Positions 28,522 to 62,625 of a stretch of 64,000 bases of DNA are shown here, piece by piece; the stretch's first letter is position 1, and the number at the start of each line of letters is the position of its first letter. The notes below the pieces were generated by a model. That model was given only the letters and a program-made list of their open reading frames with translations. It did not search any database and was not told the origin of the DNA. This DNA is from a virus. The DNA lies in IMG/VR virus record IMGVR_UViG_3300011008_000022; one strand, given 5' to 3'. The translations under genes and the position numbers were made by a program.

Positions 28522-29385
28522 ATGGCACGTATTAAAGAAATCCTGGCATTCGCCAACAATAAGGGTGGGGTAGCCAAAACCACCACCGTCCAGAACGTCG
28601 CTGCCGGTCTTCTCCGGCGCAACAGTCGTCTGCGCATCCTCTGCATCGATCTCGACCCGCAGGGCAATCTTTCTTCCCTCCTCGGCTGGCGCGATAAGAT
28701 GAAGGAGTACCACGCTAAGAACCTCGCCACTCTCACCGTGGCCGATGCCCTCCGCGATGGCGACAACAACCACCTGCCTGTCTATCAGTCTCGCAAGGGT
28801 CTCTACTATGTCCCCGCCTCTGCCGGACTGTCCGACATCGACCCTGACCTCCATCGTCAGATGCAGTCCAAGCTGGTGCTTTCGTCACTCTTTGGCAATG
28901 ACATCTTCGACATGGACCACCTCTACCTCGGTGCAAAGGCACTCGATGGCGAATACATTGAAGACACCTTCGACTATGTGCTCATCGACTGTGCTCCTGC
29001 CCTCTCCGAACTAACCTTCAACGCGCTCGCTGCCGCCTCTGGTGTCATCATCCCCGTGCAGCTCGGCTCGCTTTCAGTCGATGGCATTGGCCGCATGGTC
29101 GAAGCCTACAAGAATGTCAAGCGCAAACTCAATGCCGACCTCGACATGCGGGGCTTGCTCATTGTCATGGCCGACGAGCGCACCCGACTGGCTCGTGAGA
29201 CTACCGACTACCTCCGCGACCAGTACGACACCACTATCTTTAAGACGCGCATCCGCCAGTGTGTTAAGGTGGGCGAAAGCCAGTTCCAGCATGAGGACAT
29301 CTTCACCTATGCCCCCGAATGCACCGCCTCTCACGACTACCGCGACTTCGTTTCCGAACTCATCAAAACCCAAAATCCTGAATAA
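28522..29385 (+). CDS. parA: ParA/Soj-family partition ATPase
   Basis: Deviant Walker A NNKGGVAKTTT near the N-terminus; DCAP Walker B-like region; own promoter (-33 at 28465-28468, -7 at 28488-28495). Confidence 0.85.
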   Translation: MARIKEILAFANNKGGVAKTTTVQNVAAGLLRRNSRLRILCIDLDPQGNLSSLLGWRDKMKEYHAKNLATLTVADALRDGDNNHLPVYQSRKGLYYVPASAGLSDIDPDLHRQMQSKLVLSSLFGNDIFDMDHLYLGAKALDGEYIEDTFDYVLIDCAPALSELTFNALAAASGVIIPVQLGSLSVDGIGRMVEAYKNVKRKLNADLDMRGLLIVMADERTRLARETTDYLRDQYDTTIFKTRIRQCVKVGESQFQHEDIFTYAPECTASHDYRDFVSELIKTQNPE

Positions 29386-30191: not shown

Positions 30192-31661
30192 ATGGCAAAG
30201 AAAACTGATAAGATGCAGCAGCTCATCAAGTCTGACAATAGCATCATCCGCGAACTCCGCGACCAGAAGTGGATCTACAATCCAAAAGTCTATGCTCAGG
30301 TGGCAGGCGACTTCTCCCTCATGCACCAGCGCGTCCTCATGGGTGTACTCGAAAAGTTGCAGGACCGCATCGCCTATTCTGCTTCCGAACATCAAAAGAA
30401 CCAGCAACTCTGGCTGCCGCTTTTCGCACCAGAGGAAATGAATACCTCCGTTGACTTCGAGATCGAGGCTCGTGACCTGGGTGTCACTCCTGGCCACTAT
30501 CCCGAACTGGCTCAGGCACTCGGCGACCTCGTAAGCATGAAGATAGGCTATCCGAAGAAAAAGGGCAATAAGACCGTCTATGTCTTCGCCTCGCTCTTCT
30601 CTCGCATTGAAATGCCTACCTCCGATAATGGCTGGCGCACCGGCAAAATCCGTGTCAAGATGGATAAGGAGAATGTCAACGACTTCCTCTCTATGGATCG
30701 TGGTTATACCGACCATATCGCCCGCATAGCCCAGTTCTCAAAGAAACAGCGCACACCGCGCATCTATATCTATCTCTCCACCTTCAAGTACAAAGGACGT
30801 AACGAGGTGGAGTACCCCGAACTCTGCGAATTTCTCGGCATCGACGATGCTACCTACGTCGCTACTCATAAGGCCGAGAAACCCGATGTCAAACCTACCG
30901 ACAATCCCTTCCACAAGTTCTCAAAGGTCAAGAAACTCATCCTCGACCCCTCTAAGGCCGAAATGGATGCTTTCTCTGCTGACCGCAAAATCGACTTCTC
31001 TTTCACCTACGAACCGCTCTATAAGGATGGACGCAAAAAGGGCAATCCTACCCATATCGAGTTTGTCATTGTCCCTGGTGCCCTCGGCATCGAACGCGAA
31101 CAGGAACGCAAGCGCCACAACCAGATACAGGCGCTCATCAATGCCCTCACCCGTCAGTGGTCCGACCTCCATGCCTACGACCTCCTCGAAGTCGCTAAGG
31201 ATGTTGCTGATGATTGGCTCGACGACTTCTGCAACTATGCCTATGATGATGTGCGCCGCCAGGTGGAGAAAACACAGCCCGACCATGTAGCCGAATACGT
31301 CCTCACCCTCCTGCAGACGTGGGTCAAGAATAAGACCAACGAGGCTCGCCGTTTGGAGGTAGAGCGCAAACGTCAGTACGACATCTTCGTCCAGCAGCAG
31401 GCAGAAAGCCGGTGGCGTTCGCTGATGCAGGAACTCGGCGCACAGACCCCTCTCCGTGCCCGTCAGATCAACATCGAGCGCTATGACGAAGAAACTCACA
31501 CCCTCACCATCGCCCTCGCCGGCAAGGATATCTACGACCAGATAGAACCTATCACCGACGACCAGGGCAACACCATCACCAAAGGCATCTATCAGGATAT
31601 CTGGTTTTCTCTTGTGCGCAAATACTTTCCCCGCTCCATAGTCCAGTACCGCATGTCCTGA
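30192..31661 (+). CDS. iteron-type plasmid replication initiator (Rep_3/RepB-like)
   Basis: N-terminal IKSDNSIIREL...DFSLMHQRVLMGVLEKL resembles initiator Rep N-termini; seven upstream iterons with the last abutting the ATG; inverted iterons on both sides. Confidence 0.7.
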   Translation: MAKKTDKMQQLIKSDNSIIRELRDQKWIYNPKVYAQVAGDFSLMHQRVLMGVLEKLQDRIAYSASEHQKNQQLWLPLFAPEEMNTSVDFEIEARDLGVTPGHYPELAQALGDLVSMKIGYPKKKGNKTVYVFASLFSRIEMPTSDNGWRTGKIRVKMDKENVNDFLSMDRGYTDHIARIAQFSKKQRTPRIYIYLSTFKYKGRNEVEYPELCEFLGIDDATYVATHKAEKPDVKPTDNPFHKFSKVKKLILDPSKAEMDAFSADRKIDFSFTYEPLYKDGRKKGNPTHIEFVIVPGALGIEREQERKRHNQIQALINALTRQWSDLHAYDLLEVAKDVADDWLDDFCNYAYDDVRRQVEKTQPDHVAEYVLTLLQTWVKNKTNEARRLEVERKRQYDIFVQQQAESRWRSLMQELGAQTPLRARQINIERYDEETHTLTIALAGKDIYDQIEPITDDQGNTITKGIYQDIWFSLVRKYFPRSIVQYRMS

Positions 31662-45730: not shown

Positions 45731-46369
45731 ATGAAACTGATTGATATTACATTCGACCTTGAAAGCCTATCGCTGGCTTCTAATGCTGCCATCGTACAGA
45801 TAGCTGCTGTTGTTTTCAATCGTCATGCGTCCTCTGCTGACGAGTTGTTTCCCATCAATATCCCGCCGTTCGAGTGCAAGGTGGATATCCGATCTTGCGT
45901 AGCCGACGGGTTCGATTTCTCACCATCTACCGTGAAGTGGTGGGCTGAAAAGCCGGAAGAGGTAAAGACCGAAGTGCTCTCTGGCGATTGCTATCCGCTG
46001 CAGGAGGTATTCGCTAACTTCATCGAATGGCTCAACGAGGTAAAAACGGCCACACAGTCTGACATGCTCTGCCTCTGGGCACAAGGCTCTGACTTCGACA
46101 TCAGCGTTTTGCGCACCATACTGCGCACCTACAACCTCGAAGAGCGCTTCCCTGTGCCGTACCATAACTATCGCGATGCTCGTACATTCATTGCCGAGAT
46201 AGGTAGCCATTTCGCTGCCAACGAAGAGGCATTGGCCGACCATGCTAAGATCTACGAGGCCCTGCCTAAATATACGGGCGATGGCAACGTCCATAATGCC
46301 GTTTACGACTGCCTCCGCACCTCCTGGTCTGTATGGCAGTGCTTCTCTCTTCTCCCTGACCCTGCATAA
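45731..46369 (+). CDS. DEDDh 3'-5' exonuclease (DnaQ-like)
   Basis: ITFDLESL (Exo I), LWAQGSDFDISVL (Exo II), HNAVYDC (Exo III). Confidence 0.75.
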   Translation: MKLIDITFDLESLSLASNAAIVQIAAVVFNRHASSADELFPINIPPFECKVDIRSCVADGFDFSPSTVKWWAEKPEEVKTEVLSGDCYPLQEVFANFIEWLNEVKTATQSDMLCLWAQGSDFDISVLRTILRTYNLEERFPVPYHNYRDARTFIAEIGSHFAANEEALADHAKIYEALPKYTGDGNVHNAVYDCLRTSWSVWQCFSLLPDPA

Positions 46370-46377
46370 TATTTGGT

Positions 46378-49300
46378 ATGATCTACGACCCACTCATAGA
46401 CGAACTTGCAGCATTACCGCTGAACCTCCTCATACAACCTGCCGACCAGCAGACAGAAGAGGGACAGACGGCATGTTGGTGTCCGTTCTGTAAGGGTAAT
46501 GCCAGTGCGTCCGCTGGTTCTGCTGGCGGGAAAAGCACTCCGCATTTCATCATCTACCACCGTCGTCGTGGTGGTCTCTATGGCAAACCTGTCGAATATT
46601 GGTTCTGTACCAAGACGCGACGGGGTGGCTATGGAGCCATCGAACTGTATGCGGCAATGATGGGGCTGGGCTATTGGTGGCGTAAGGATGCACACGCTCC
46701 GCAGACATTCATCTGTGTGGGAGAGGATCTGCGACATGCCTGCCTCGGATTGGCCGAGAAGATGGGACATACCCGTGAGGAAATCAAAGAGAAGTGGCCA
46801 CAGCTGCTGGCTCGTGACTACCGAGAGACTGCCGTGCGACCACAAGAGGTGCTGACATTCGAGCCTAAGACGGACTTTACACCGCAGGATCTCGCAGCAC
46901 TCGGATGCACCACATGGCTCTCACGCGATGGCATCGAACAGTATGGCTTCGATACGGCCAACAAAGAGGCTGACTGGCATTTCCACCCGTCCATGATTCA
47001 AAAGGACTTTCACGTTTATGCGGTTGGTAAGGTGACGCTGCCTGCTGTCTCTCGCCAGGGCGAACCTCAGTCTGAGGTGCTGGTATCTACGCCTTGGAAC
47101 CCTATCTTTGTCGCGCTCGCCGATGATGAGAACGAGGATTGTGGCTCTATCTTCCGTCCGGCCATCGAGGAACAGCCCCCTATGGTATTCTCTACAACCG
47201 AGGAGCATACCACTACCAAGGTAAGCCGTTGGCTGGCGGGCGATAAGGTCTTCTTACGCGCTGTCGAACTGCGCACATCCGACACGACGGGTGTACGCAA
47301 GGCCATTCAGGAACTCGACCCAGAGGAACGGGTGACTGAGGTAAAACAGGAATGGCAGGAGTCTTCCGATAAAAACGGCAACCCGAAAATGGAACTGATA
47401 GACGTGCCCATCCGTGATAAGGATATCAAGGCTCGTGCTGTTATCTATTGCACCTCGGCTCAGGATGCCATAGCCACCTACTACCACCTGAAGGCACTGC
47501 GACACACATACCCCAAGCAGTTCGGCAACCGCTGGTATCATGTGTGCTTCCCTTATGGCGATGTGCCTTTCTCGAATATTCATTATAATAAGATGCACCG
47601 CTTTGCGGATAACATCTACACCCTTTTCGCCTCTGACACGAAACAGACACTCCGTGCCCGTGACATCAGCTGCCGCTATCGTGACGTGCTACGTGCCCAA
47701 CTGCCAGAGACAATGACAGACAGGGCACACCTTTATTTCCCACGTCTCTTCTGTCACCCCTCACAGACGGTACGCGACTTCTTCCTGGCTTACCACATGC
47801 TGCCGCGTGAGGCGTTCCAGAACGATGAGGACATCAACCGCCTCTTCTCATCATGTATCACGTCGGCTCTCAGCAGCGACCCCTTCGAGCGAAAAGAGAA
47901 AAGGGATAAGAATGGCATGGTGAAGGAGGTGTATTATACCATCAATCCAGCTACCCTTTGGGAGTTTATGGCCAGTGCGGGCTATGCTCGCGACGTGCGT
48001 CCCGATGAGCCGGATAAGATAGGACGTTATGTGCATATCGATGGCCCTTTTGCCGACGAACTGGAACCGCAGTCTATGGTGCAGGCCACCATCGAACACC
48101 TGAAGGCGTATGCACGTCAACTCAACGACGCTCGCCCTGGCCTTCCCGATGAATATGAGCTGATGGTGCAGTCTGTGCTTCGTGCAAATAAGGAGATCAA
48201 CGAGAAGACGATAGCCTCGCTCCCCGCTGTCAAGATGAACTATAACGAGGGCTATGGTCGCCACATCGAACATTTCTTCTACGAGAATGGTGCGCTTCGT
48301 ATCACCGACAACGAGATAACTTTGCTTCCCTACGATCAGATAGACTTCAACGTGGAACGTGGCGAGAAACTGCATTGGAACATCACGCCGCTAAAAGAAC
48401 TGCCGTTCGAGATTTCCGAAAACCCCGACTATCGTCGTCGTTTGGAGGCTATCAAGGCTAAAGAGGCTGAAAAGGATGACAACGGCAAACCGCTCTATAC
48501 GCTCTCCCAACTGGAACAGGATAAAAACGACCTGGCTCTCTGGGCACAGTCTCATCGCTGGCTCGTCGATTGGAAGGGTAAGCATGAGGATGAAATGTGG
48601 CCCACGCTCCGCGTCATTCGTGGCTTTGCGAATGAGGAGTGGGAACAGGAACAGCGCCTGATTCACGATGGCAAACAGTTTTCTTCTGAGGAACAGATGA
48701 AACTGGATTGTCGTTTTGCTAACCTGATATTCTGTTTGGGACGTATGCTCTGGCGCTACCGTGATAGCAAGTCCAACTGTATCAGTTATCTCATCGAAAA
48801 CGTGGTGTCTGCAGCCAACCGTGCTGAAGGTGGCTCAGGTAAATCTACATTCGTGCGTATCTTTGCCGGCTGTGCAGCGCATATCCTGAACATCAACGGA
48901 CGCGACCTTATTAGTAATAAGGAGTTCTCGGCTAACCTGGCTGAGTATCAGCACCACAAACACCGCATCGTACACTGGGAGGATGTGGATGCCTCACTCG
49001 ATTTCGGTAAGCTCTACAACCTCACCACCGGCGACTTCTCCGTCCGCTATATGTATAAGGACCGTATCACCATTCCTTTGTCTGAGGGTCCTGGTCATGT
49101 GGTCACGTCTAACTATCCGCTTCACGACCTCGACGACTCTACCATGCGTCGTGTCTGTCTGGGTGGTTTCTCTCATCGCTTCTGTGGCCAAAATATAATG
49201 AAGAACAAAGCGGCTCGCTATATTTCGGACATCATGCCCGACTTCAATGCCGTTTCTCCTGAAAAACTCTCCGCCACCTCTCGCAATCAGATTGCTATGA

Positions 49301-50046
49301 TATGCGCCCTCGCTGTGCAGTTTGTCATGCGCTACGATGAGAAGGTGGACGCTCAGAAGAAGTACATGGAACAGCGTACCCTCACACAGTCACTCGGAGA
49401 GGCGTTCCTGCGTTTCGCTCGTGTGTTCTTTGCTCAGGAACATGTCTATGGTGTTCCCGTCGATCTCGACTCTATGCTGGAAGAATATAAGTCCGACTTT
49501 GCCGAGGCATCGAAAAATAAGACTGACTCATTCTCTCCCAAGGCATTCAAACGCCGCATCCTCGATTACTGCGAGACTGCCGGCATTCTGATGAACCCGC
49601 CACAACTCTTCAAGAAAGCGGATGGTAAGGTGCTCAAAAAGGCTGAACAGACCAACTACTTCGCACACCAGGCTTGGTGTACGCGCCGTTACTTCGAGGG
49701 CCGTGAATGGGAGGAGGATGCAACGATTGCACCTAAGCAGATCCGTGAATTGGTACGCACCGAACATGCGGTATATTTCTATCGCTCCGGCAAAGATACC
49801 ATACCCGCTAACAACGATGAACTGATGAAGGCTTACGAGGCATTCCTGGCACAGCCCGATCCAGCACCAATCACTGATGATAATGGTCATATCGTAGCAC
49901 TCACCGAAGAGGAACAGCAACGCTGGCGCTCATACCTCGATGGCCGTCAGCGCAAAAGGGCTTCTGGCGCTGCTCCTGCCACGCCAACAGCAGCAACCGC
50001 CACACCTGCCTCTACTGCACCGCCCGAAGATGACCTCCCCTTCTAA
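46378..50046 (+). CDS. primase-helicase (CHC2-like zinc finger plus P-loop NTPase)
   Basis: CWCPFCKG...TPHFIIY...GGYGAIELYAAMMGL resembles a CHC2 primase finger; Walker A AEGGSGKSTF; 1222 aa; C-terminus ends EDDLPF. Confidence 0.7.
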   Translation: MIYDPLIDELAALPLNLLIQPADQQTEEGQTACWCPFCKGNASASAGSAGGKSTPHFIIYHRRRGGLYGKPVEYWFCTKTRRGGYGAIELYAAMMGLGYWWRKDAHAPQTFICVGEDLRHACLGLAEKMGHTREEIKEKWPQLLARDYRETAVRPQEVLTFEPKTDFTPQDLAALGCTTWLSRDGIEQYGFDTANKEADWHFHPSMIQKDFHVYAVGKVTLPAVSRQGEPQSEVLVSTPWNPIFVALADDENEDCGSIFRPAIEEQPPMVFSTTEEHTTTKVSRWLAGDKVFLRAVELRTSDTTGVRKAIQELDPEERVTEVKQEWQESSDKNGNPKMELIDVPIRDKDIKARAVIYCTSAQDAIATYYHLKALRHTYPKQFGNRWYHVCFPYGDVPFSNIHYNKMHRFADNIYTLFASDTKQTLRARDISCRYRDVLRAQLPETMTDRAHLYFPRLFCHPSQTVRDFFLAYHMLPREAFQNDEDINRLFSSCITSALSSDPFERKEKRDKNGMVKEVYYTINPATLWEFMASAGYARDVRPDEPDKIGRYVHIDGPFADELEPQSMVQATIEHLKAYARQLNDARPGLPDEYELMVQSVLRANKEINEKTIASLPAVKMNYNEGYGRHIEHFFYENGALRITDNEITLLPYDQIDFNVERGEKLHWNITPLKELPFEISENPDYRRRLEAIKAKEAEKDDNGKPLYTLSQLEQDKNDLALWAQSHRWLVDWKGKHEDEMWPTLRVIRGFANEEWEQEQRLIHDGKQFSSEEQMKLDCRFANLIFCLGRMLWRYRDSKSNCISYLIENVVSAANRAEGGSGKSTFVRIFAGCAAHILNINGRDLISNKEFSANLAEYQHHKHRIVHWEDVDASLDFGKLYNLTTGDFSVRYMYKDRITIPLSEGPGHVVTSNYPLHDLDDSTMRRVCLGGFSHRFCGQNIMKNKAARYISDIMPDFNAVSPEKLSATSRNQIAMICALAVQFVMRYDEKVDAQKKYMEQRTLTQSLGEAFLRFARVFFAQEHVYGVPVDLDSMLEEYKSDFAEASKNKTDSFSPKAFKRRILDYCETAGILMNPPQLFKKADGKVLKKAEQTNYFAHQAWCTRRYFEGREWEEDATIAPKQIRELVRTEHAVYFYRSGKDTIPANNDELMKAYEAFLAQPDPAPITDDNGHIVALTEEEQQRWRSYLDGRQRKRASGAAPATPTAATATPASTAPPEDDLPF

Positions 50047-50048
50047 GT

Positions 50049-50077
50049 CCCTGTGTCCAGCCGTTCTCGGCTGGGTC
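50049..50077 (+). repeat. family-A hairpin after the primase-helicase gene
   Basis: ccctgtgtCCAGCCGttctCGGCTGGgtc. Confidence 0.9.
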
Positions 50078-50129
50078 TCACTAAGGAAACAACGTAATAA
50101 CAATAAAAAATTAACTTAAAAGTAAAATT

Positions 50130-50729
50130 ATGGCACGTTACAGATTTTCTATCGACATCGGCACCTTTATCGGTGCCAGGTTCTTAAACCTCACACTCAC
50201 AGAGGGTGGTAAACCCATTCCTGGCATCTTCATCCCTGCTGGCATCAATGGCATAGAGATACAACAGGACACCCGCGATGAGGGTAAGCGCAACGCCTCC
50301 GGCTTCCGTGCATTCCTGAACTTCCTCCAGCGCTCGTGCAATGGTAAGTACATCGATGCAGTGAAACAGTCACTCATGCGCAAAGGCGAAGAAATCACAC
50401 TCTACAACGTCCCTGCCTATCAGGTGGCCTACACGCTGCCCGAAGAGAAACGTAACAAAATCCGTGCGGCTCTCAAAGCGCGTGTCATCGCTGATCATCC
50501 TGAATGGAAAGACCAGTCCGACACACAGGGAACCGACCTCTCACGCGCTATCTCTATGCTGGTTCCCTATCAGATGGGCGACTCCTACCTGGTGGAAGAC
50601 CAGAACACGCAGCAGCCACGTAACAGCTCCGCACCTGTCGCTCAGGGTGTAGCCGGCTATACTCAGCCTGCCTCTTCTGAATACGACCCGTTTGGCGGTG
50701 GCGAAGCCAACGACGACCTCCCATTCTAA
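50130..50729 (+). CDS. SSB-like protein (non-canonical N-terminus, canonical SSB C-terminal tip)
   Basis: Q/P/G/S-rich linker followed by a terminal DPFGGGEANDDLPF, which matches the SSB-Ct tip consensus DDD(I/L)PF; sits between the primase-helicase and the clamp. Confidence 0.45.
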   Translation: MARYRFSIDIGTFIGARFLNLTLTEGGKPIPGIFIPAGINGIEIQQDTRDEGKRNASGFRAFLNFLQRSCNGKYIDAVKQSLMRKGEEITLYNVPAYQVAYTLPEEKRNKIRAALKARVIADHPEWKDQSDTQGTDLSRAISMLVPYQMGDSYLVEDQNTQQPRNSSAPVAQGVAGYTQPASSEYDPFGGGEANDDLPF

Positions 50730-50730
50730 C

Positions 50731-50759
50731 CCCTGTGCCCAGCCGTTCTCGGCTGGGTC
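50731..50759 (+). repeat. family-A hairpin after the SSB-like gene
   Basis: ccctgtgCCCAGCCGttctCGGCTGGGtc. Confidence 0.9.
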
Positions 50760-50777: not shown

Positions 50778-51929
50778 ATGAAATTCAACGTATCATCCCG
50801 CGAACTGCTCCGTGTTCTGAAGGCCACCGGCGCAGTCATCCAACGCAAATGCAGCCTTCCCATCCTGACCAGCCACCTCTTTACGCAGGTAGGCGATAAG
50901 TTCTTCATCACTGGCTCGTCACTGGAGAACGCCCTCACCATGCCGGTGGGCATCCTCATGGATGCTGGCGACACATTCCAGCCGTTCTGCCTGCCTGCTG
51001 CCGACATCATCCCGCTACTTGGCTCTCTGCCTGAACAGCCAGTGACGTTCGATATCGACATGACCGCACATATCGCTCGTGTCATCTATCAGAGCGGACA
51101 GGTGTCTGTACCTATCGAAGACTCTGCCGAATATCCCAAGGTGGCTGATGTGGCCACACCTAAAACGGCTTTCACCGTTCCTGCCAATATATTCTTCCCT
51201 GCTGTCAAGGCTGCCAACGGCTGTACGGCTGTCGATGACACCCTGCGTCCGCAGATGTCTGCAGTAGCCCTCGACGTGAAAGATGAACAGGTTATCTTTG
51301 TGGGTACCGACGGCCATAGCCTCTATAAGTATGAGTATTTCCATGGTGCGCCGTTCCTGTCAGGCGAAAAGACGGTCATCCTCATTCCTAACACCATCGT
51401 AGGATCACTCCAGACACCATTCCTCGGTGTAGAAGCTATTGAAGTGCTGTACGACGGTAAGCATGTATGCCTCCGTGCTGGTGATATCTCTTTCACCATT
51501 CGTGACATCGAAAAGAAATATCCCAACTACAACAGCGTCATTCCAAAGAGTAACCCTTATCATGTGATACTGCCGGTGGCATCACTCCTCGGTGCCCTCA
51601 AACGTGTGCAGCTGATGGCCTCCGATGCCTCTAATATGGTCAAGCTCTCTAAGGATGGTATGTTTGTCAACCTCTCCGCTGCCGACATCGATTTCTCGAA
51701 GTCTGCCTCTGAGAACCTGACACTCGCCGAGGTGGATAAGCCGCTGACGCTGCCAGACGCTTTCGCCATCGGCTTCAAGGCGGTTACGCTCCTGAAACTG
51801 CTGGATAACATCAGTACCGACAATGTGCGTATCGAACTCTCTGACCCTGCTCATGCTATGCTGATTAAAGAGGATGCGGAAAACTCCGTCCTCACCGAAT
51901 TGTGTATGCCAATGAAACTCGAAGAATAA
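50778..51929 (+). CDS. dnaN: DNA polymerase III beta sliding clamp
   Basis: 383 aa; [46 protein letters not shown] match conserved DnaN blocks. Confidence 0.9.
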
Positions 51930-52363
51930 TGAAAATAGATATCATCAACAACTCCCACCACCCACTCCCTGAATATGCCACAGCTCAGTCTGCAGGCATG
52001 GATCTTCGTGCTAACCTCACAGAGCCTATCGTTCTGCAACCCATGGAGCGTGTATTAGTCCCCACCGGCCTGCATATCGCACTCCCCGCAGGCTACGAGG
52101 CTCAGGTGCGCCCACGCTCAGGACTCGCCCTGAAACATGGTATCACCGTGCTCAATGCACCAGGCACCATCGATGCCGACTACCGTGGCGAAATTGGTGT
52201 GTTGCTCATCAATCTTAGCAACATCCCCTTCGAGATCACCGATGGCGAACGCATCGCCCAACTGGTGATTGCTTCTTACGAACAGGCAGAGTGGAACCCA
52301 GTGACAGTCCTCGACGATACCGAACGTGGCGATGGCGGTTACGGACATACCGGCACAAAGTAA
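51929..52363 (+). CDS. dut: dUTP diphosphatase
   Basis: [40 protein letters not shown] (dUTPase motifs 1-5); TAATG overlap with dnaN. Confidence 0.9.
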
Positions 52364-52779
52364 TGGATAATATGTATAACTGTGATTTTATCGCAAAGTC
52401 ACTTGTTGCTGATGAGGGCTGTGCCACCAACTGTCCTGGTGTTACTCACCGTATAGAGGTGGCCTGCTTCTTCCGGCATGGCCGCACATCCTATTTCATT
52501 GCGAAAGATGGCCGTGTCCTATCAGCTCCTACAGCCACCGTGCTCGATGGTTCTCCATCGAGTCCTGGCGCTCTCTGTAAGGAGATAGCATCTTTCAACG
52601 GCAAGGGCTATCGCCGTGTCCGTCTCGCTGGTAAGAACTTTAAGGTGCATCGCCTCGTGGCAGAAGCCTTTGTCCCTAACCCAGACAACCTTCCCCACGT
52701 CATCCATATCGATGGCAACCGCACCAATAATCATTTCTCTAACCTCAAATGGTCCGCCACCCAGTCTAACCGCGAATGA
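52363..52779 (+). CDS. HNH homing-type endonuclease (HNH_3/NUMOD4-like)
   Basis: VHRLVAEAFVPNPDNLPHVIHIDGNRTNNHFSNLKW; TAATG overlap with dut; in-frame hairpin 52535-52564. Confidence 0.75.
   Translation: MDNMYNCDFIAKSLVADEGCATNCPGVTHRIEVACFFRHGRTSYFIAKDGRVLSAPTATVLDGSPSSPGALCKEIASFNGKGYRRVRLAGKNFKVHRLVAEAFVPNPDNLPHVIHIDGNRTNNHFSNLKWSATQSNRE
52535..52564 (+). repeat. family-A hairpin, in frame in the HNH gene
   Basis: ccaccgtgCTCGATGGttctCCATCGAGtc (both arms changed relative to CCCGATGG/CCATCGGG). Confidence 0.85.
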
Positions 52780-61144: not shown

Positions 61145-61408
61145 ATGGAAGAAAAACTTTTCGCTCGTATCGTGGCGCTCCTCACCGCCCACTTCGACAA
61201 CATGCCTGCAGCCGAGGACATCCACCTCGACGACAATCTGCATGAAGACCTCAATCTCGATTCTATCGACATTGTGGACTTCATTATGATGTGTGAAACG
61301 AACTTCAACATTAAACTCGACATGACAGATGCGAAGAACACGCACACCCTGCGCGACCTCATCCGTTCTATCATCGAAGTAAAGCCCAGCCTATGCGACG
61401 CACAGTAA
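61145..61408 (+). CDS. acyl carrier protein
   Basis: 87 aa acidic four-helix pattern with the phosphopantetheine-site motif DLNLDSIDIVDFI (DSxD). Confidence 0.75.
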   Translation: MEEKLFARIVALLTAHFDNMPAAEDIHLDDNLHEDLNLDSIDIVDFIMMCETNFNIKLDMTDAKNTHTLRDLIRSIIEVKPSLCDAQ

Positions 61409-62625
61409 TCACGGGCATGGGCATCTGGTCCTGCATCGGTCAGTCCGTTCAGGAGGTGGCTCAGTCTCTCCGTCTTGGAAAGAGTGGCATCGGCATCGAT
61501 CCTGAGCGTACCGCCTACGGCTACCAATCACCCCTTACCGGCATCGTGCCGCGTCCCGACATCAAGGCTCAGGGATTGCGACGCTCTCAGCGCATCACAC
61601 TCTCCGAACCTGGTGAATATGGCTACATGGCCATGAAAGAGGCGCTGACGATGGCTCCTGTCAGCGACCTCTATCGCTGTGGCCTTATCGTCAGCAATGA
61701 CAGCACTGCTGGCGCTCTCGCTGAGACAGAGGCTATCATGGCGGAATACCATGACAGCCGACGACTGGGTGCCGGCATGGTGTTCCGCACCCTCAATAGC
61801 TCGGTATCTATGTCGCTGGCTTCCATCTTTGGCATCGGTGGCCTCACACTCTCCGTCTCTGCTGCCTGTGCCGGTGGTGGCCACGCTATCGGTCTCGCTC
61901 ATTCGCTCATTCAGTCCGGCCAACTGGACTGCTGCATTGTGGTAGGCGCTCAGGAGGTAGGACTACATGCCTATACATCCTTTGATGCACTCGGTCTCTT
62001 CAGCAAGCGTACCGACAACCCAGCAGCTGCCTCACGTCCGTTTGACACAGAGCGTGACGGCCTCGTGCCCTCTGGTGGCGCTGCCTGCGTTATCCTCGAA
62101 ACAGCCGGACATGCCGCTATGGGAAACAGAAAACCCTTGGCCATGGTCGATGGCTATGGCTTCTCCACCAGTCCCGATCTCGTTTCTCCCTCTTCCGATG
62201 CTATTTACCAGTCCATGACCGCCGCCCTATCTGCCGCCACTGTGCCCAGCGGTTCTCCGCTGGGTCCTGGTATCTCCGCTATCATGGCTCACGCTACCTC
62301 CACGCCCGATGGCGACCGTGCCGAGGCAGAAGCTATCCACCGCTTCTGTCTTGATAATGGTCTATCTCATCCTTTCGTCATCAGCACCAAGGCGCTCACA
62401 GGTCACGAGTGCTGGATGTCGGGTGTCTCTCAGATCGTCTATGCACTCATACAGATGCAAGGTGGTTTCATAGCACCAAACATCAACCTCCGCACCATCG
62501 ACCCAGCAGCAGCTACGCTACGCATTCCAACAGCGCCAACCGTCACCACGCTAACCACCGTTCTCTGCAACGCCTTCGGTTTCGGTGGCACCAACAGTAG
62601 CCTGGTAATCTCTCGCGCTGGCTAA
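61393..62625 (+). CDS. beta-ketoacyl-ACP synthase (KAS I/II, FabF/FabB-like)
   Basis: VITGMGIWS, active-site SAACAGGGHAIG (Cys), HATSTPDGDRAE (His), TGHECWMSG (His), NAFGFGGTNSSLVI; overlaps the ACP gene by 16 nt; in-frame hairpin 62237-62266. Confidence 0.85.
   Translation: MRRTVITGMGIWSCIGQSVQEVAQSLRLGKSGIGIDPERTAYGYQSPLTGIVPRPDIKAQGLRRSQRITLSEPGEYGYMAMKEALTMAPVSDLYRCGLIVSNDSTAGALAETEAIMAEYHDSRRLGAGMVFRTLNSSVSMSLASIFGIGGLTLSVSAACAGGGHAIGLAHSLIQSGQLDCCIVVGAQEVGLHAYTSFDALGLFSKRTDNPAAASRPFDTERDGLVPSGGAACVILETAGHAAMGNRKPLAMVDGYGFSTSPDLVSPSSDAIYQSMTAALSAATVPSGSPLGPGISAIMAHATSTPDGDRAEAEAIHRFCLDNGLSHPFVISTKALTGHECWMSGVSQIVYALIQMQGGFIAPNINLRTIDPAAATLRIPTAPTVTTLTTVLCNAFGFGGTNSSLVISRAG
62237..62266 (+). 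repeat. family-A hairpin, in frame in the ketoacyl synthase gene
   Basis: ccactgtgCCCAGCGGttctCCGCTGGGtc (peptide ATVPSGSPLG). Confidence 0.9.

What the first reader, a model, noticed from the sequence alone, without database searches (positions are those of the whole stretch)
50020..50729. The same C-terminal DDLPF tip on the primase-helicase and on the SSB-like protein, next to a phage-encoded beta clamp
The 1222-aa primase-helicase ends ...PPEDDLPF. The next gene product ends ...GGGEANDDLPF after a Q/P/G-rich linker. D-D-(D)-(I/L)-P-F at the extreme C-terminus is the established SSB-Ct protein-interaction tip. The 199-aa protein therefore looks like a functional SSB despite an N-terminus I cannot match to a canonical OB-fold SSB. 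A helicase-primase carrying an SSB tip is unusual. It suggests that it mimics SSB to dock the same partners: host SSB-interactome proteins, or the phage clamp encoded immediately downstream.
Basis: partly seen in the sequence, partly recalled or inferred. Interest (0 to 1): 0.65.

Follow-up and report, generated by a model that had tools for sequence, protein, structure and literature searches.

The report
Shared SSB-type tail in phage replisome
In a family of ~100-kb gut and rumen Prevotella phages, the replicative helicase and a neighbouring small protein of unknown fold both end in the same D-L-P-F "docking tip" that bacterial single-strand-binding proteins use to recruit partners, which suggests that the phage connects its own replication proteins through the host's SSB docking code.

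Summary
The 1222-aa protein (46378..50046) ends EDDLPF. The next protein (199 aa, 50130..50729) ends NDDLPF. A beta clamp gene follows at 50778..51929. Across 149 distinct helicase homologues (down to 35% identity) the last two residues are P-F in 148, and P-Y in one. 154 of 159 small-protein homologues end in PF, while the linkers before the tip are hypervariable. The gene order helicase, small protein, DnaN holds in 99 of 99 loci.

The tip equals the SSB-Ct of Bacteroidota SSBs (DLPF). The small protein has the SSB layout: a basic folded domain, a disordered A/P/Q/G-rich linker of about 40 aa, and an acidic tip. Its domain matches no OB fold, no gp2.5 fold, no Pfam or PHROG family and no PDB structure. 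It is an orphan family.

The large protein is a D5/E5-like SF3 helicase with a toprim-like region that lacks the DxD motif, so "primase" is unproven. I found no canonical SSB and no DNA polymerase in about 90% of the genome.

Best reading: the shared tip is an SSB-Ct-type docking tail. It follows the logic of T7 gp4 and gp2.5 but uses the bacterial SSB code. The receptor is unresolved. Candidates are host SSB-interacting proteins (about 0.45) or the phage clamp (about 0.35; one near-isogenic pair points that way).

The parts
46378..50046 (+). 1222-aa D5/E5-like SF3 replicative helicase. It has an N-terminal Zn-ribbon-like CxCxxC...H motif, a toprim-like region (about residues 350-440) and a Walker A motif GGSGKST (residues 818-824).
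   Evidence: Pfam DUF5906 at E 1.3e-5, below the gathering score. TIGR01613 P4-family primase C-terminal domain at E 6e-4. AF2 model with pLDDT 86. Foldseek PDB top hits are ASFV PrimPol, MPXV E5 and vaccinia D5 at E 5e-11 to 1e-8 over about 600 columns. hhalign against the Polaribacter phage Leef_1 'DNA primase/TOPRIM' protein gives E 1e-28.
49948..50025 (+). Low-complexity A/T/P-rich linker of the helicase (RKRASGAAPATPTAATATPASTAPP), which follows the last predicted helix.
   Evidence: Hypervariable in 58 homologues. pLDDT is below 50 from residue 1195.
50026..50043 (+). Helicase C-terminal tip E-D-D-L-P-F-COOH.
   Evidence: Conservation profile: F(0) 148/149, P(-1) 149/149, L or M at -2 in 129/149, D at -3 in 122/149, mostly E or D at -4 and -5.
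50058..50074 (+). Copy of the repeated hairpin CAGCCG-TTCT-CGGCTG(G), 12 nt after the helicase stop codon.
   Evidence: There are 22 copies in the window against 0.02 expected.
50130..50600 (+). Folded N-terminal domain (residues 1-157) of the 199-aa orphan protein. It is basic (pI 8.7), has six beta strands followed by an alpha/beta part, and has no recognisable fold.
   Evidence: AF2 core pLDDT about 85. Foldseek finds no PDB hit with E below 2 and one BFVD hit to an uncharacterised 123-aa phage protein at E 5e-4. No Pfam, PHROG or NCBIfam hit. pI.
50601..50711 (+). Disordered A/P/Q/G/S-rich linker (residues 158-194) that includes a second aromatic motif, Y-D-P-F.
   Evidence: pLDDT below 50 for residues 159-182 and 190-196. 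Hypervariable in alignments A1 and A2. Composition.
50712..50726 (+). Small-protein C-terminal tip D-D-L-P-F-COOH.
   Evidence: D196, P198 and F199 are invariant and L197 is at least 90% conserved in A1. hhalign aligns only this tail to E. coli SSB ...DFDDDIPF.
50740..50756 (+). Second copy of the repeated hairpin, 11 nt after the small-protein stop codon.
50778..51929 (+). Phage-encoded beta sliding clamp (DnaN, 383 aa). The core of the canonical peptide-binding cleft is retained.
   Evidence: When aligned to E. coli beta, T172/G174/H175/L177/P242/V247/M362/P363/M364/L366 are kept, and subsite 2 (N320/Y323/V344/S346) has diverged.
45731..46369 (+). Rv2179c-like / DnaQ-like 3'-5' exonuclease. 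It lies directly upstream of the helicase and is syntenic in related phages.
   Evidence: Pfam PF16473 at E 2.5e-25 and PHROG 255 exonuclease. Synteny.

Best explanation
The two adjacent genes encode a D5/E5-like SF3 replicative helicase and a 199-aa orphan-family protein. The small protein is built like a bacterial SSB: a basic folded domain, a disordered linker of about 40 aa and an acidic tip. Both end in the same short linear motif, [DE]-D-L-P-F-COOH. This is the SSB-Ct protein-docking tip in the form used by Bacteroidota SSBs.

Proposed mechanism. The tip is a shared docking tail that plugs both phage replisome parts into the same SSB-Ct-binding pocket or pockets. The phage (or phage-plasmid) is about 100 kb and infects Prevotella. 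It encodes no recognisable DNA polymerase and no canonical SSB. It does encode a beta clamp, a DnaQ-like exonuclease, an NAD ligase and primase-like proteins. It therefore must use host Pol III and host fork proteins.

I propose two roles. First, the small protein coats phage ssDNA in place of host SSB and presents the host-type tip. Second, the hexameric helicase presents six copies of the same tip. These tether host SSB-interacting proteins (the polymerase and restart or repair factors) to the fork, replacing the DnaB-tau contact that an SF3 helicase lacks. This is the logic of T7, where the gp4 helicase and the gp2.5 SSB carry similar acidic tails ending in Phe and bind the same patches on the polymerase. 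Here it is written in the bacterial SSB-Ct code.

Shown: the motif itself, its extreme conservation on both families, the hypervariable disordered linkers, the synteny with DnaN, the SF3 helicase fold, and the absence of any detectable OB fold, canonical SSB or polymerase.
Inferred: ssDNA binding by the small protein, and the identity of the receptor. My estimates for the receptor are host SSB-interacting proteins about 0.45, the phage clamp about 0.35 and something else about 0.2.
For: - Motif and chance.
- Conservation: 58 helicase homologues at 35-99% identity all end in PF after variable linkers. The small-protein family does the same (45 close homologues; 43 representative clusters in 1.84 billion proteins). 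In its 40-member alignment the tail is the most conserved part. Pooled census: 149/149 P and 148/149 F in helicases; 154/159 small proteins end in PF.
- The conservation profile is F and P invariant, D at -3 nearly so, and -2 tolerant (L, M, V, Y, C, P, A or S in helicases). This matches SSB-Ct recognition, which depends on the terminal Phe and its carboxylate, on Pro176 as shown by the ssb113 mutation, and on an acidic run. That last comparison is established knowledge, recalled rather than tested here.
- DDDLPF and DLPF are authentic SSB tips: S. aureus and B. subtilis (PMC5531588); Flavobacterium psychrophilum and Psychroflexus torquis, both Bacteroidota (PMC3991886).
- Hosts are Prevotella, Prevotellaceae or Bacteroidaceae.
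- SSB-like architecture: a disordered region; domain pI 8.7, whole protein 5.5, A/P/Q/G linker.
- No SSB or DNA polymerase family in any window ORF scanned or in about 20 kb of flanking genome from relatives.
- SF3 helicase fold.
- T7 precedent: gp2.5 ends ...EDGDF and gp4 ends ...NDTDF. Both tails bind gp5 basic patches (PMC12593628; PMC12339929).
Against: - No experiment and no complex model exists.
- The small protein's domain shows no similarity to any known ssDNA-binding fold, so ssDNA binding is inferred from layout and context only.
- The SSB tip was not checked in Prevotella itself. The evidence is at phylum level, from a paper.
- About 10 kb of the ~103-kb genome was not inspected, and several large ORFs have no annotation. 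A very divergent polymerase or SSB cannot be fully excluded.
- Some data point to the phage clamp as the receptor instead (see the first rival).
Confidence: 0.5

Rival explanations
1. The DLPF tails are clamp-binding motifs for the phage's own beta clamp. The helicase and the small protein are both tethered to the phage DnaN through its canonical hydrophobic cleft, giving a clamp-centred replisome. The likeness to SSB-Ct is then secondary, or the phage clamp has evolved to read an SSB-Ct-like peptide. This does not exclude host partners as well.
For: - The small protein and DnaN are adjacent in 99/99 loci. This includes L024, which has the pair but no SF3 helicase within 10 kb on either side.
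- The phage DnaN keeps the core of subsite 1.
- Radical changes at tail position -2 associate with changes in the DnaN C-terminal 'MPM' strand (E. coli 362-364): table [[8,1],[7,23]], p=7.5e-4.
- In the near-isogenic pair L005 and L061, DnaN is 98.7% identical with 5 differences and the small proteins are 97.5% identical. The tail change KDDLPF to NGDYPF coincides with P363L in DnaN. P363 is invariant in every other DnaN tabulated here, 100+ loci.
- L-P-F resembles the end of hexapeptide clamp-binding motifs such as Hda QLSLPL and Pol IV QLVLGL-COOH (recalled from memory, not tested here).
Against: - The association is not specific. Column 364 ranks only 19th of 229 DnaN columns, and the deviant genomes are more divergent overall.
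- Within-clade pairs show only 8.0% against 6.4% pocket substitutions.
- L/M switches in the helicase occur with an identical DnaN.
- The defining Q and L at positions 1 and 2 of a clamp-binding motif are replaced by acidic residues.
- The key hydrophobic at -2 can be C, P, A or S in helicases.
- The invariant Pro and the near-invariant Asp are SSB-Ct hallmarks, not clamp-binding-motif hallmarks.
Confidence: 0.35
2. The tails act inside the phage replisome without host proteins or the clamp. As in E. coli SSB, T7 gp2.5 and T4 gp32, the acidic tail folds back onto the basic DNA-binding surface of the small protein and auto-inhibits it. The helicase tail binds that same surface to load or hand off the small protein onto freshly unwound ssDNA. 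Alternatively, both tails bind another phage protein such as the Rv2179c-like exonuclease, the BT4734-like primase or the ligase.
For: - The domain is basic (median pI 8.5 across the family) and the tip is acidic.
- The exonuclease, helicase and small-protein genes are tightly syntenic.
- E. coli exonuclease I, a DEDD-family exonuclease, is a classic SSB-Ct binder (recalled from memory).
- In T7, gp2.5 tails contact both gp4 and gp5.
Against: - Electrostatic mimicry of ssDNA would not need an invariant Pro-Phe or the exact host-type tip.
- L024 keeps the tail on the small protein without the helicase or the exonuclease nearby.
- No covariation test was possible for these partners.
Confidence: 0.1
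3. The small protein is an SSB-Ct decoy, not an SSB. It presents the host tip to titrate or redirect host SSB-interacting proteins, such as nucleases, RecQ, RecG or defence factors, away from host SSB. Or the LPF end is a ClpXP-type degron that sets protein turnover.
For: - No ssDNA-binding fold is detectable.
- C-terminal LPF of SsbA is a ClpXP degron in Streptococcus mutans (PMC5143411).
Against: - The same tip on the replicative helicase and the fixed position inside the replication operon argue for recruitment, not inhibition.
- Judging by that paper's section headings, LPF recognition by ClpXP is strain-dependent and absent in other bacteria.
- A degron would not need the acidic run.
Confidence: 0.05

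Closest known systems
Bacterial SSB C-terminal tip (SSB-Ct, D-D-D-[IL]-P-F) as an interaction hub
   Same: The terminal sequence is identical (DDLPF or DLPF). The architecture is the same: a folded domain, an intrinsically disordered linker rich in P/Q/G/A, and an acidic tip. The conservation pattern is the same: P and F invariant with an acidic run. The overall pI is about 5.5, as for SSBs.
   Different: The folded domain is not a detectable OB fold and has no homology to PF00436 SSBs. Only the last 13 residues align to E. coli SSB. The same tip also sits on an SF3 helicase.
Phage T7 gp4 helicase-primase and gp2.5 SSB, which share acidic C-terminal tails ending in Phe
   Same: A phage helicase and its ssDNA-binding partner carry the same kind of disordered acidic tail with a terminal aromatic residue. 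In T7 both dock to the same basic patches of the polymerase and couple unwinding, synthesis and SSB displacement.
   Different: The T7 tails (...DGDF and ...DTDF) are not the bacterial SSB-Ct, and they bind a phage-encoded polymerase. Here the tip is the host-type SSB-Ct. No phage polymerase was found. The helicase is SF3 (D5-like), not SF4 (DnaB-like). The small protein is not gp2.5-like.
NCLDV D5/E5-type and ASFV C962R primase-helicases; P4-alpha-like and Polaribacter phage Leef_1 TOPRIM-SF3 proteins
   Same: The SF3 helicase core with D5N-like and collar regions matches by Foldseek at E 5e-11. Homology to the Leef_1 'DNA primase/TOPRIM' protein covers residues 347-1077.
   Different: None of these is known to end in an SSB-Ct, and the Leef_1 protein ends ...NLDFLGE. 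The toprim DxD motif (DIDKTG in Leef_1) is P-x-D-x-x-S in this family and ASDTKQ in the window protein.
Deinococcus DdrB, a non-OB 'alternative SSB' with a disordered C-terminus and a purported SSB-like motif
   Same: It is a precedent for an ssDNA-binding protein with a novel fold and an SSB-like disordered tail (PMC3834827).
   Different: There is no structural match to DdrB among the Foldseek PDB hits. The DdrB motif was reported to be dispensable for radioresistance, whereas here the tip is the most conserved part of the protein.
Beta-clamp-binding motifs (QL[SD]LF; hexapeptide QLxLx[LF])
   Same: The location is C-terminal, the end L-x-F/L is hydrophobic, and a clamp is encoded next door with an intact subsite 1.
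   Different: There is no Q or L at positions 1 and 2. The Pro is invariant and there is an acidic run. Position -2 is variable in helicases.

Membership tests
Canonical bacterial/phage OB-fold SSB (Pfam PF00436) | N-terminal OB-fold ssDNA-binding domain homologous to SSB | tested here: not met
   No Pfam, NCBIfam or PHROG hit for the window protein or for 40 diverse family members. hhalign of the family profile against E. coli SSB aligns only the last 13 residues. Foldseek of the AF2 model finds no PDB hit with E below 2.
Canonical bacterial/phage OB-fold SSB (Pfam PF00436) | Intrinsically disordered, low-complexity linker after the folded domain | tested here: met
   pLDDT below 50 for residues 159-182 and 190-196. 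Composition is A 16%, P 14%, Q 13%, G 8%, and the length ranges from 30 to 54 aa across the family. The linker is hypervariable.
Canonical bacterial/phage OB-fold SSB (Pfam PF00436) | Acidic C-terminal tip D-D-(D)-[IL]-P-F-COOH | tested here: met
   NDDLPF in the window protein. 154 of 159 family members end in PF, with D at -3 in 149 and L at -2 in 148.
Canonical bacterial/phage OB-fold SSB (Pfam PF00436) | Binds ssDNA, as a homotetramer or dimer | not testable with these tools
   This needs EMSA or fluorescence titration and SEC-MALS. The only indirect evidence is a basic domain (pI 8.7) with conserved Arg, Lys and aromatic residues.
T7 gp2.5-like SSB (DUF2815) | gp2.5-type OB fold | tested here: not met
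   hhalign against T7 gp2.5 gives probability 0.6%. There is no Pfam hit. 1JE5-type structures are absent from the Foldseek hits.
T7-type system in which helicase and SSB share a tail | Helicase and SSB-like protein of one phage carry the same acidic tail with a terminal aromatic residue | tested here: met
   for this phage family. for T7.
T7-type system in which helicase and SSB share a tail | Tails dock on a phage-encoded DNA polymerase | tested here: not met
   No DNA polymerase family appears in any scanned ORF of the window or of flanking genome parts from relatives. About 10 kb was not inspected.
SF3 helicase, D5/E5/P4-alpha type | SF3 AAA+ core with Walker A, and fold similarity to D5-like helicases | tested here: met
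   GGSGKST is invariant. DUF5906 at E 1.3e-5, just below the gathering score. Foldseek at E 5e-11 to 1e-8 to ASFV PrimPol, MPXV E5 and vaccinia D5.
Primase-helicase fusion (toprim or AEP primase domain) | Catalytic primase motifs: toprim E plus DxD, or AEP DxD/H/D | tested here: inconclusive
   The region at about residues 350-440 is homologous to the toprim region of the Leef_1 'DNA primase/TOPRIM' protein. However, the DxD motif (DIDKTG) is replaced by P-x-D-x-x-S, which is ASDTKQ in the window. The invariant acidic residues in the N-terminal half are only E89, D289 and E317. A separate BT4734-like_N/PriCT_2 gene exists.
Bacterial beta sliding clamp (DnaN) | Three beta-clamp domains and a hydrophobic peptide-binding cleft | tested here: met
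   PF00712, PF02767 and PF02768. The cleft residues T172, G174, H175, L177, P242, V247, M362, P363, M364 and L366 are retained.
Clamp-binding motif (QL[SD]LF or QLxLx[LF]) | Q at position 1 and a hydrophobic residue at position 2 | tested here: not met
   Positions -5 and -4 are mostly E, D, S, P or N.
Clamp-binding motif (QL[SD]LF or QLxLx[LF]) | Coevolution or physical contact with the clamp cleft | tested here: inconclusive
   The association gives p=7.5e-4 but is not column-specific. One near-isogenic case pairs P363L with the tail change L to Y. The within-clade test is weak.

The most novel reading that the evidence does not exclude
The 199-aa protein is a previously unrecognised, non-OB class of phage ssDNA-binding or hub protein that convergently acquired the bacterial SSB linker-and-tip module. 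The SF3 helicase of the same phages carries the identical tip so that helicase, SSB analogue and sliding clamp form one docking network. In the strongest version, the phage beta clamp's canonical cleft has been retuned to read the SSB-Ct code. That would merge two interaction systems thought to be separate, clamp-binding motifs and SSB-Ct, and would let a polymerase-less phage assemble a hybrid replisome around host Pol III.
Probability: 0.3. Interest if true: 0.8.

Novelty: new variant of a known kind. Interest (0 to 1): 0.6.

Why it matters
SSB-Ct docking is the organising principle of bacterial genome maintenance, and it is thought to belong to OB-fold SSBs. This family shows two departures. 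First, the same tip sits on a replicative SF3 helicase and is conserved across 149 distinct sequences. Second, it sits on an orphan protein with the SSB layout but no detectable OB fold.

If confirmed, this would show how a large phage or phage-plasmid of dominant gut and rumen Bacteroidales, lacking its own polymerase, builds a hybrid replisome from its own helicase, clamp and exonuclease and the host polymerase. It would give a bacterial-code counterpart of the T7 gp4/gp2.5 tail system. It could also add a new ssDNA-binding fold.

The hypothesis is directly testable with peptides. The family is abundant: 240 metagenome stretches matched, from human gut and rumen samples. No cultured phage or plasmid record carries the small protein.

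Tried and rejected
1. OB or gp2.5 fold for the 199-aa protein. Pfam, PHROGs, NCBIfam, PDB phmmer and hmmsearch, hhalign against E. coli SSB and T7 gp2.5, and Foldseek against PDB and BFVD were all negative, apart from the tail and one uncharacterised viral protein.

2. Covariation between the two tails. The early pairs looked striking: DDVPF/DDVPF in L031, EDYPF/GDYPF in L005 and DPDMPF/DPDLPF in L023. With 42 non-redundant genomes the association at -2 is not significant, p=0.14. The codons differ, so simple gene conversion is not indicated.

3. Covariation between the tail and the clamp cleft. The first 17 genomes gave a perfect split between MPM and non-MPM. With 78 more loci the split weakened. 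A scan of all columns shows it is not specific to the cleft. The within-clade test is weak. Only the L005/L061 case remains suggestive.

4. Distant relatives in IMG/VR. Searches with single proteins or sub-alignments found nothing or could not be run.

5. Host SSB tip. A tblastn search of plasmids returned only Enterobacteriaceae. I relied on published Bacteroidota SSB tips instead.

6. Nucleotide match of the region to INPHARED phages: none.

7. The exact-sequence look-up of the window's first protein was not on record.

8. Chance and annotation artefact were rejected on conservation.


Full report
OBSERVATION

The finding is correct at the stated coordinates.
- ORF 46378..50046 (+, 1222 aa) ends ...STAPPEDDLPF.
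- ORF 50130..50729 (+, 199 aa) ends ...EYDPFGGGEANDDLPF after a Q/P/G/A/S-rich stretch.
- ORF 50778..51929 (+, 383 aa) is a beta sliding clamp. It hits all three Pfam beta-clamp domains, PHROG 947 at E 1.7e-40 and TIGR00663.

Among 798 stop-to-stop segments of at least 40 aa in six frames of the window, only these two end in PF. Both end in DDLPF and they are neighbours.

CONSERVATION

The helicase family:
- 58 cluster representatives at 35-99% identity over the full length all end in PF.
- The PF is usually preceded by [DE][DE][LM].
- The 20-30 residues before it are unalignable low-complexity sequence.

The small-protein family is narrow. It has 45 close homologues and only 43 clusters at 50% identity among 1.84 billion proteins.
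- In a 40-member alignment with 29% mean identity, the invariant columns are M1, P36, P198 and F199.
- L10, G15, I35, N40, G86, D196 and L197 are at least 90% conserved.
- The tip is therefore the most conserved part of the protein.

I pooled the database proteins with 127 fetched loci, including 78 from a metagenome scan.

| Position | 149 distinct helicases | 159 distinct small proteins |
|---|---|---|
| 0 | F in 148, Y in 1 | 154 end in PF |
| -1 | P in 149 | 154 end in PF |
| -2 | L or M in 129 | L in 148 |
| -3 | D in 122 | D in 149 |

The five small-protein exceptions look truncated or frameshifted. The order helicase, small protein, DnaN on one strand holds in 99/99 loci, with median gaps of 28 and 18 nt.

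WHAT THE ELEMENT IS

Relatives sit on 58-107 kb contigs that are binned with Prevotella, Prevotellaceae or Bacteroidaceae or are listed in IMG/VR. One is a 90-kb contig of the isolate Prevotella sp. MGM1. Contigs from different samples are circularly permuted relative to the window.

The window carries:
- a tape-measure gene, a holin and tail genes;
- several DNA methyltransferases;
- an NAD-dependent ligase;
- ParA and a weak Rep3-like initiator;
- dUTPase and an Rv2179c-like (DnaQ-like) exonuclease.

It is therefore a ~100-kb siphovirus-like phage, probably a phage-plasmid. No nucleotide match exists in INPHARED. No homologue of the small protein exists in INPHARED phages or PLSDB plasmids.

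No Pfam or PHROG family for a DNA polymerase or for any SSB (PF00436, gp2.5-like and so on) was hit by any of the window ORFs scanned. The same is true for about 20 kb of the remaining genome read from close relatives. That part encodes a head protease, tail proteins, an endolysin, ThyX, a BT4734-like_N/PriCT_2 primase-like protein and a Tad2-like protein. About 10 kb was not inspected.

THE 1222-AA PROTEIN

An AlphaFold2 model built with 48 homologues is confident, with pLDDT 86. Foldseek against the PDB returns ASFV PrimPol C962R, monkeypox E5 and vaccinia D5 at E 5e-11 to 1e-8 over about 600 columns.

Together with the invariant Walker A motif GGSGKS and weak DUF5906 and TIGR01613 hits, this makes the C-terminal half a D5-like SF3 helicase.

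Residues 347-1077 are homologous (hhalign E 1e-28) to the 'DNA primase/TOPRIM' protein of Polaribacter phage Leef_1. Where Leef_1 has the toprim DxD motif (DIDKTG), this family has P-x-D-x-x-S, which is ASDTKQ in the window. Primase activity is therefore unproven. Priming may be supplied by the separate BT4734-like/PriCT_2 gene just past the window end. The Leef_1 protein has no DLPF tail, so the tail is a specific acquisition of this family.

THE 199-AA PROTEIN

The AF2 model has mean pLDDT 74 and a core of about 85. It shows a folded domain at residues 1-157, with six beta strands followed by alpha/beta elements. After it comes a disordered stretch with pLDDT below 50.
- The domain is basic (pI 8.7; family median 8.5).
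- The linker is rich in A, P, Q and G and is 30-54 aa long.
- The whole protein has pI 5.5, in the range reported for bacterial SSBs (PMC3991886).

The domain has no detectable relationship to any known ssDNA-binding fold:
- No Pfam, PHROG or NCBIfam hit for it or for 40 relatives.
- No PDB sequence hit.
- Foldseek finds no PDB hit with E below 2.
- One BFVD hit to an uncharacterised 123-aa phage protein.
- hhalign against T7 gp2.5 finds nothing.
- hhalign against E. coli SSB aligns only the last 13 residues...dDLPF to ...DFDDDIPF.

It is an orphan family with the SSB layout.

THE TIP IS AN SSB-CT

DDDIPF is the E. coli SSB-Ct, and DDDLPF is that of S. aureus and B. subtilis SsbA (PMC5531588). 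The SSBs of the Bacteroidota Flavobacterium psychrophilum and Psychroflexus torquis end in DLPF (PMC3991886 Table 1). The phage tails therefore carry the tip of the host phylum.

The conservation profile is an invariant Pro-Phe, a near-invariant Asp at -3, an acidic run, and a more tolerant -2 position (L, M, V, Y, C, P, A or S in helicases). From established knowledge, this is what SSB-Ct recognition predicts. That recognition uses the Phe side chain and its carboxylate in a hydrophobic and basic pocket, and Pro176 is essential, as the ssb113 mutation shows.

MECHANISM

The best-supported reading is a shared docking tail. Both the helicase (six tails per hexamer) and the SSB-like protein plug into the same receptor pocket or pockets.

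The closest precedent is T7. There gp2.5 (...EDGDF) and gp4 (...NDTDF) carry acidic tails that bind the same basic patches of the polymerase. These contacts couple unwinding, synthesis and SSB displacement (PMC12593628; PMC12339929).

Here the code is the bacterial SSB-Ct and no phage polymerase is found. The obvious receptors are therefore host SSB-interacting proteins. The phage would replace host SSB on its ssDNA while keeping the host interactome. It would also give its SF3 helicase a tether to host Pol III that DnaB normally gets through tau. This step is inferred, not shown.

THE CLAMP ALTERNATIVE

Points in favour:
- The small protein and DnaN are always adjacent. This holds even in L024, which lacks the SF3 helicase within 10 kb on either side.
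- The phage DnaN keeps the core of the canonical cleft.
- In the first 17 genomes, every genome with a non-L residue at tail position -2 had a changed DnaN C-terminal 'MPM' strand.

With 78 more loci the pattern weakened:
- The table is [[8,1],[7,23]], p=7.5e-4.
- The column ranks only 19th of 229, and the deviant genomes are more divergent overall.
- Within-clade pairs show 8.0% against 6.4% cleft substitutions.
- L/M switches in the helicase occur with an identical DnaN.

One near-isogenic case remains suggestive. L005 and L061 differ at 5 of about 383 DnaN residues and at 5 of about 200 small-protein residues. Three of the small-protein differences lie in the last six residues (KDDLPF to NGDYPF). 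One of the DnaN differences is P363L, at a cleft residue that is invariant in every other DnaN tabulated here, 100+ loci.

Against the clamp model, the tails lack the Q-L start of clamp-binding motifs, they tolerate C, P, A or S at the key hydrophobic position, and their invariant features are those of SSB-Ct.

I rate host SSB-interacting proteins at about 0.45, the phage clamp at about 0.35 (the two are not exclusive) and other partners at about 0.2.

Covariation between the two tails looked striking at first (V/V and Y/Y pairs) but is not significant in the larger sample, p=0.14.

VERDICT

The tip is a real, selected SSB-Ct-type tail on both proteins. The SSB function of the small protein and the identity of the partner remain inferences. 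The 'primase' label is unproven.
- This is a new variant of a known kind: SSB-Ct hubs and T7-style tail sharing. It includes an orphan-fold SSB-like protein and a helicase carrying a bacterial SSB-Ct.
- The family is abundant in gut and rumen metagenomes and is absent from cultured-phage databases.

Noticed in passing
window, 22 sites, e.g. 1463, 2286, 6156, 9215, 9787, 11167, 11886, 20802, 31691, 32402, 42180, 45697, 50058, 50740, 54638, 61082, 62776, 63110: The repeated hairpin CAGCCG-TTCT-CGGCTGG has 22 copies with at most 2 mismatches, all scored on the + strand, against 0.02 expected by shuffling. Most lie 5-40 nt after stop codons of + strand genes. Only some are followed by a T-run. It looks like a phage-wide intergenic RNA hairpin, perhaps a terminator, a processing or stabilising element, or a protein-binding site.
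   Followed up: partly
window 61145..61408 and 61393..62625: An acyl carrier protein (PP-binding) and a FabF-like beta-ketoacyl synthase are encoded directly after the tape-measure gene of a phage. A PP-binding gene also occurs in the relative L047. This is an unusual auxiliary lipid or polyketide module.
   Followed up: no
window 28522..29385 and 30192..31661: A ParA-like partition ATPase lies next to a weak Rep3-like initiator (Rep3_C, E 0.004). Relatives sit on self-contained ~100-kb contigs that are circularly permuted between samples. Together this suggests a phage-plasmid lifestyle.
   Followed up: partly
L032:12799-13791 (starts about 190 nt past the window end): A separate 330-aa BT4734-like_N plus PriCT_2 protein is present, and it also occurs in the distant relative L025. 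It is a likely AEP-type primase. This may explain why the toprim-like region of the helicase has lost its DxD motif.
   Followed up: no
L007:9537-10151 and L007:10219-10833: One IMG/VR contig (13 kb, 100% identical small protein) carries two tandem copies of the small-protein ORF, each with the DDLPF tail, before DnaN. This is either a real duplication or an assembly artefact.
   Followed up: no
DnaN genes of L001-L129 compared with the small-protein genes: The phage clamp evolves much faster than its neighbour. In L031 the small protein is 75% identical to the window protein but DnaN is only 47% identical. In L005 the values are 59% and 34%. Cleft positions change at about the average rate of the protein.
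   Followed up: partly
L006:5791-9528: One helicase homologue ends ...NLDEIPY instead of ...DLPF. It is the only one of 149 with a terminal Tyr. Its neighbour keeps IDDLPF.
   Followed up: no
L032:17536-17982; window 52291..52779; L032:13799-14731: Other accessory genes are present: a Tad2-like (anti-Thoeris) gene, an HNH_3 endonuclease between the dUTPase and the C5-methyltransferase, and ThyX. The window also carries at least four DNA methyltransferases.
   Followed up: no
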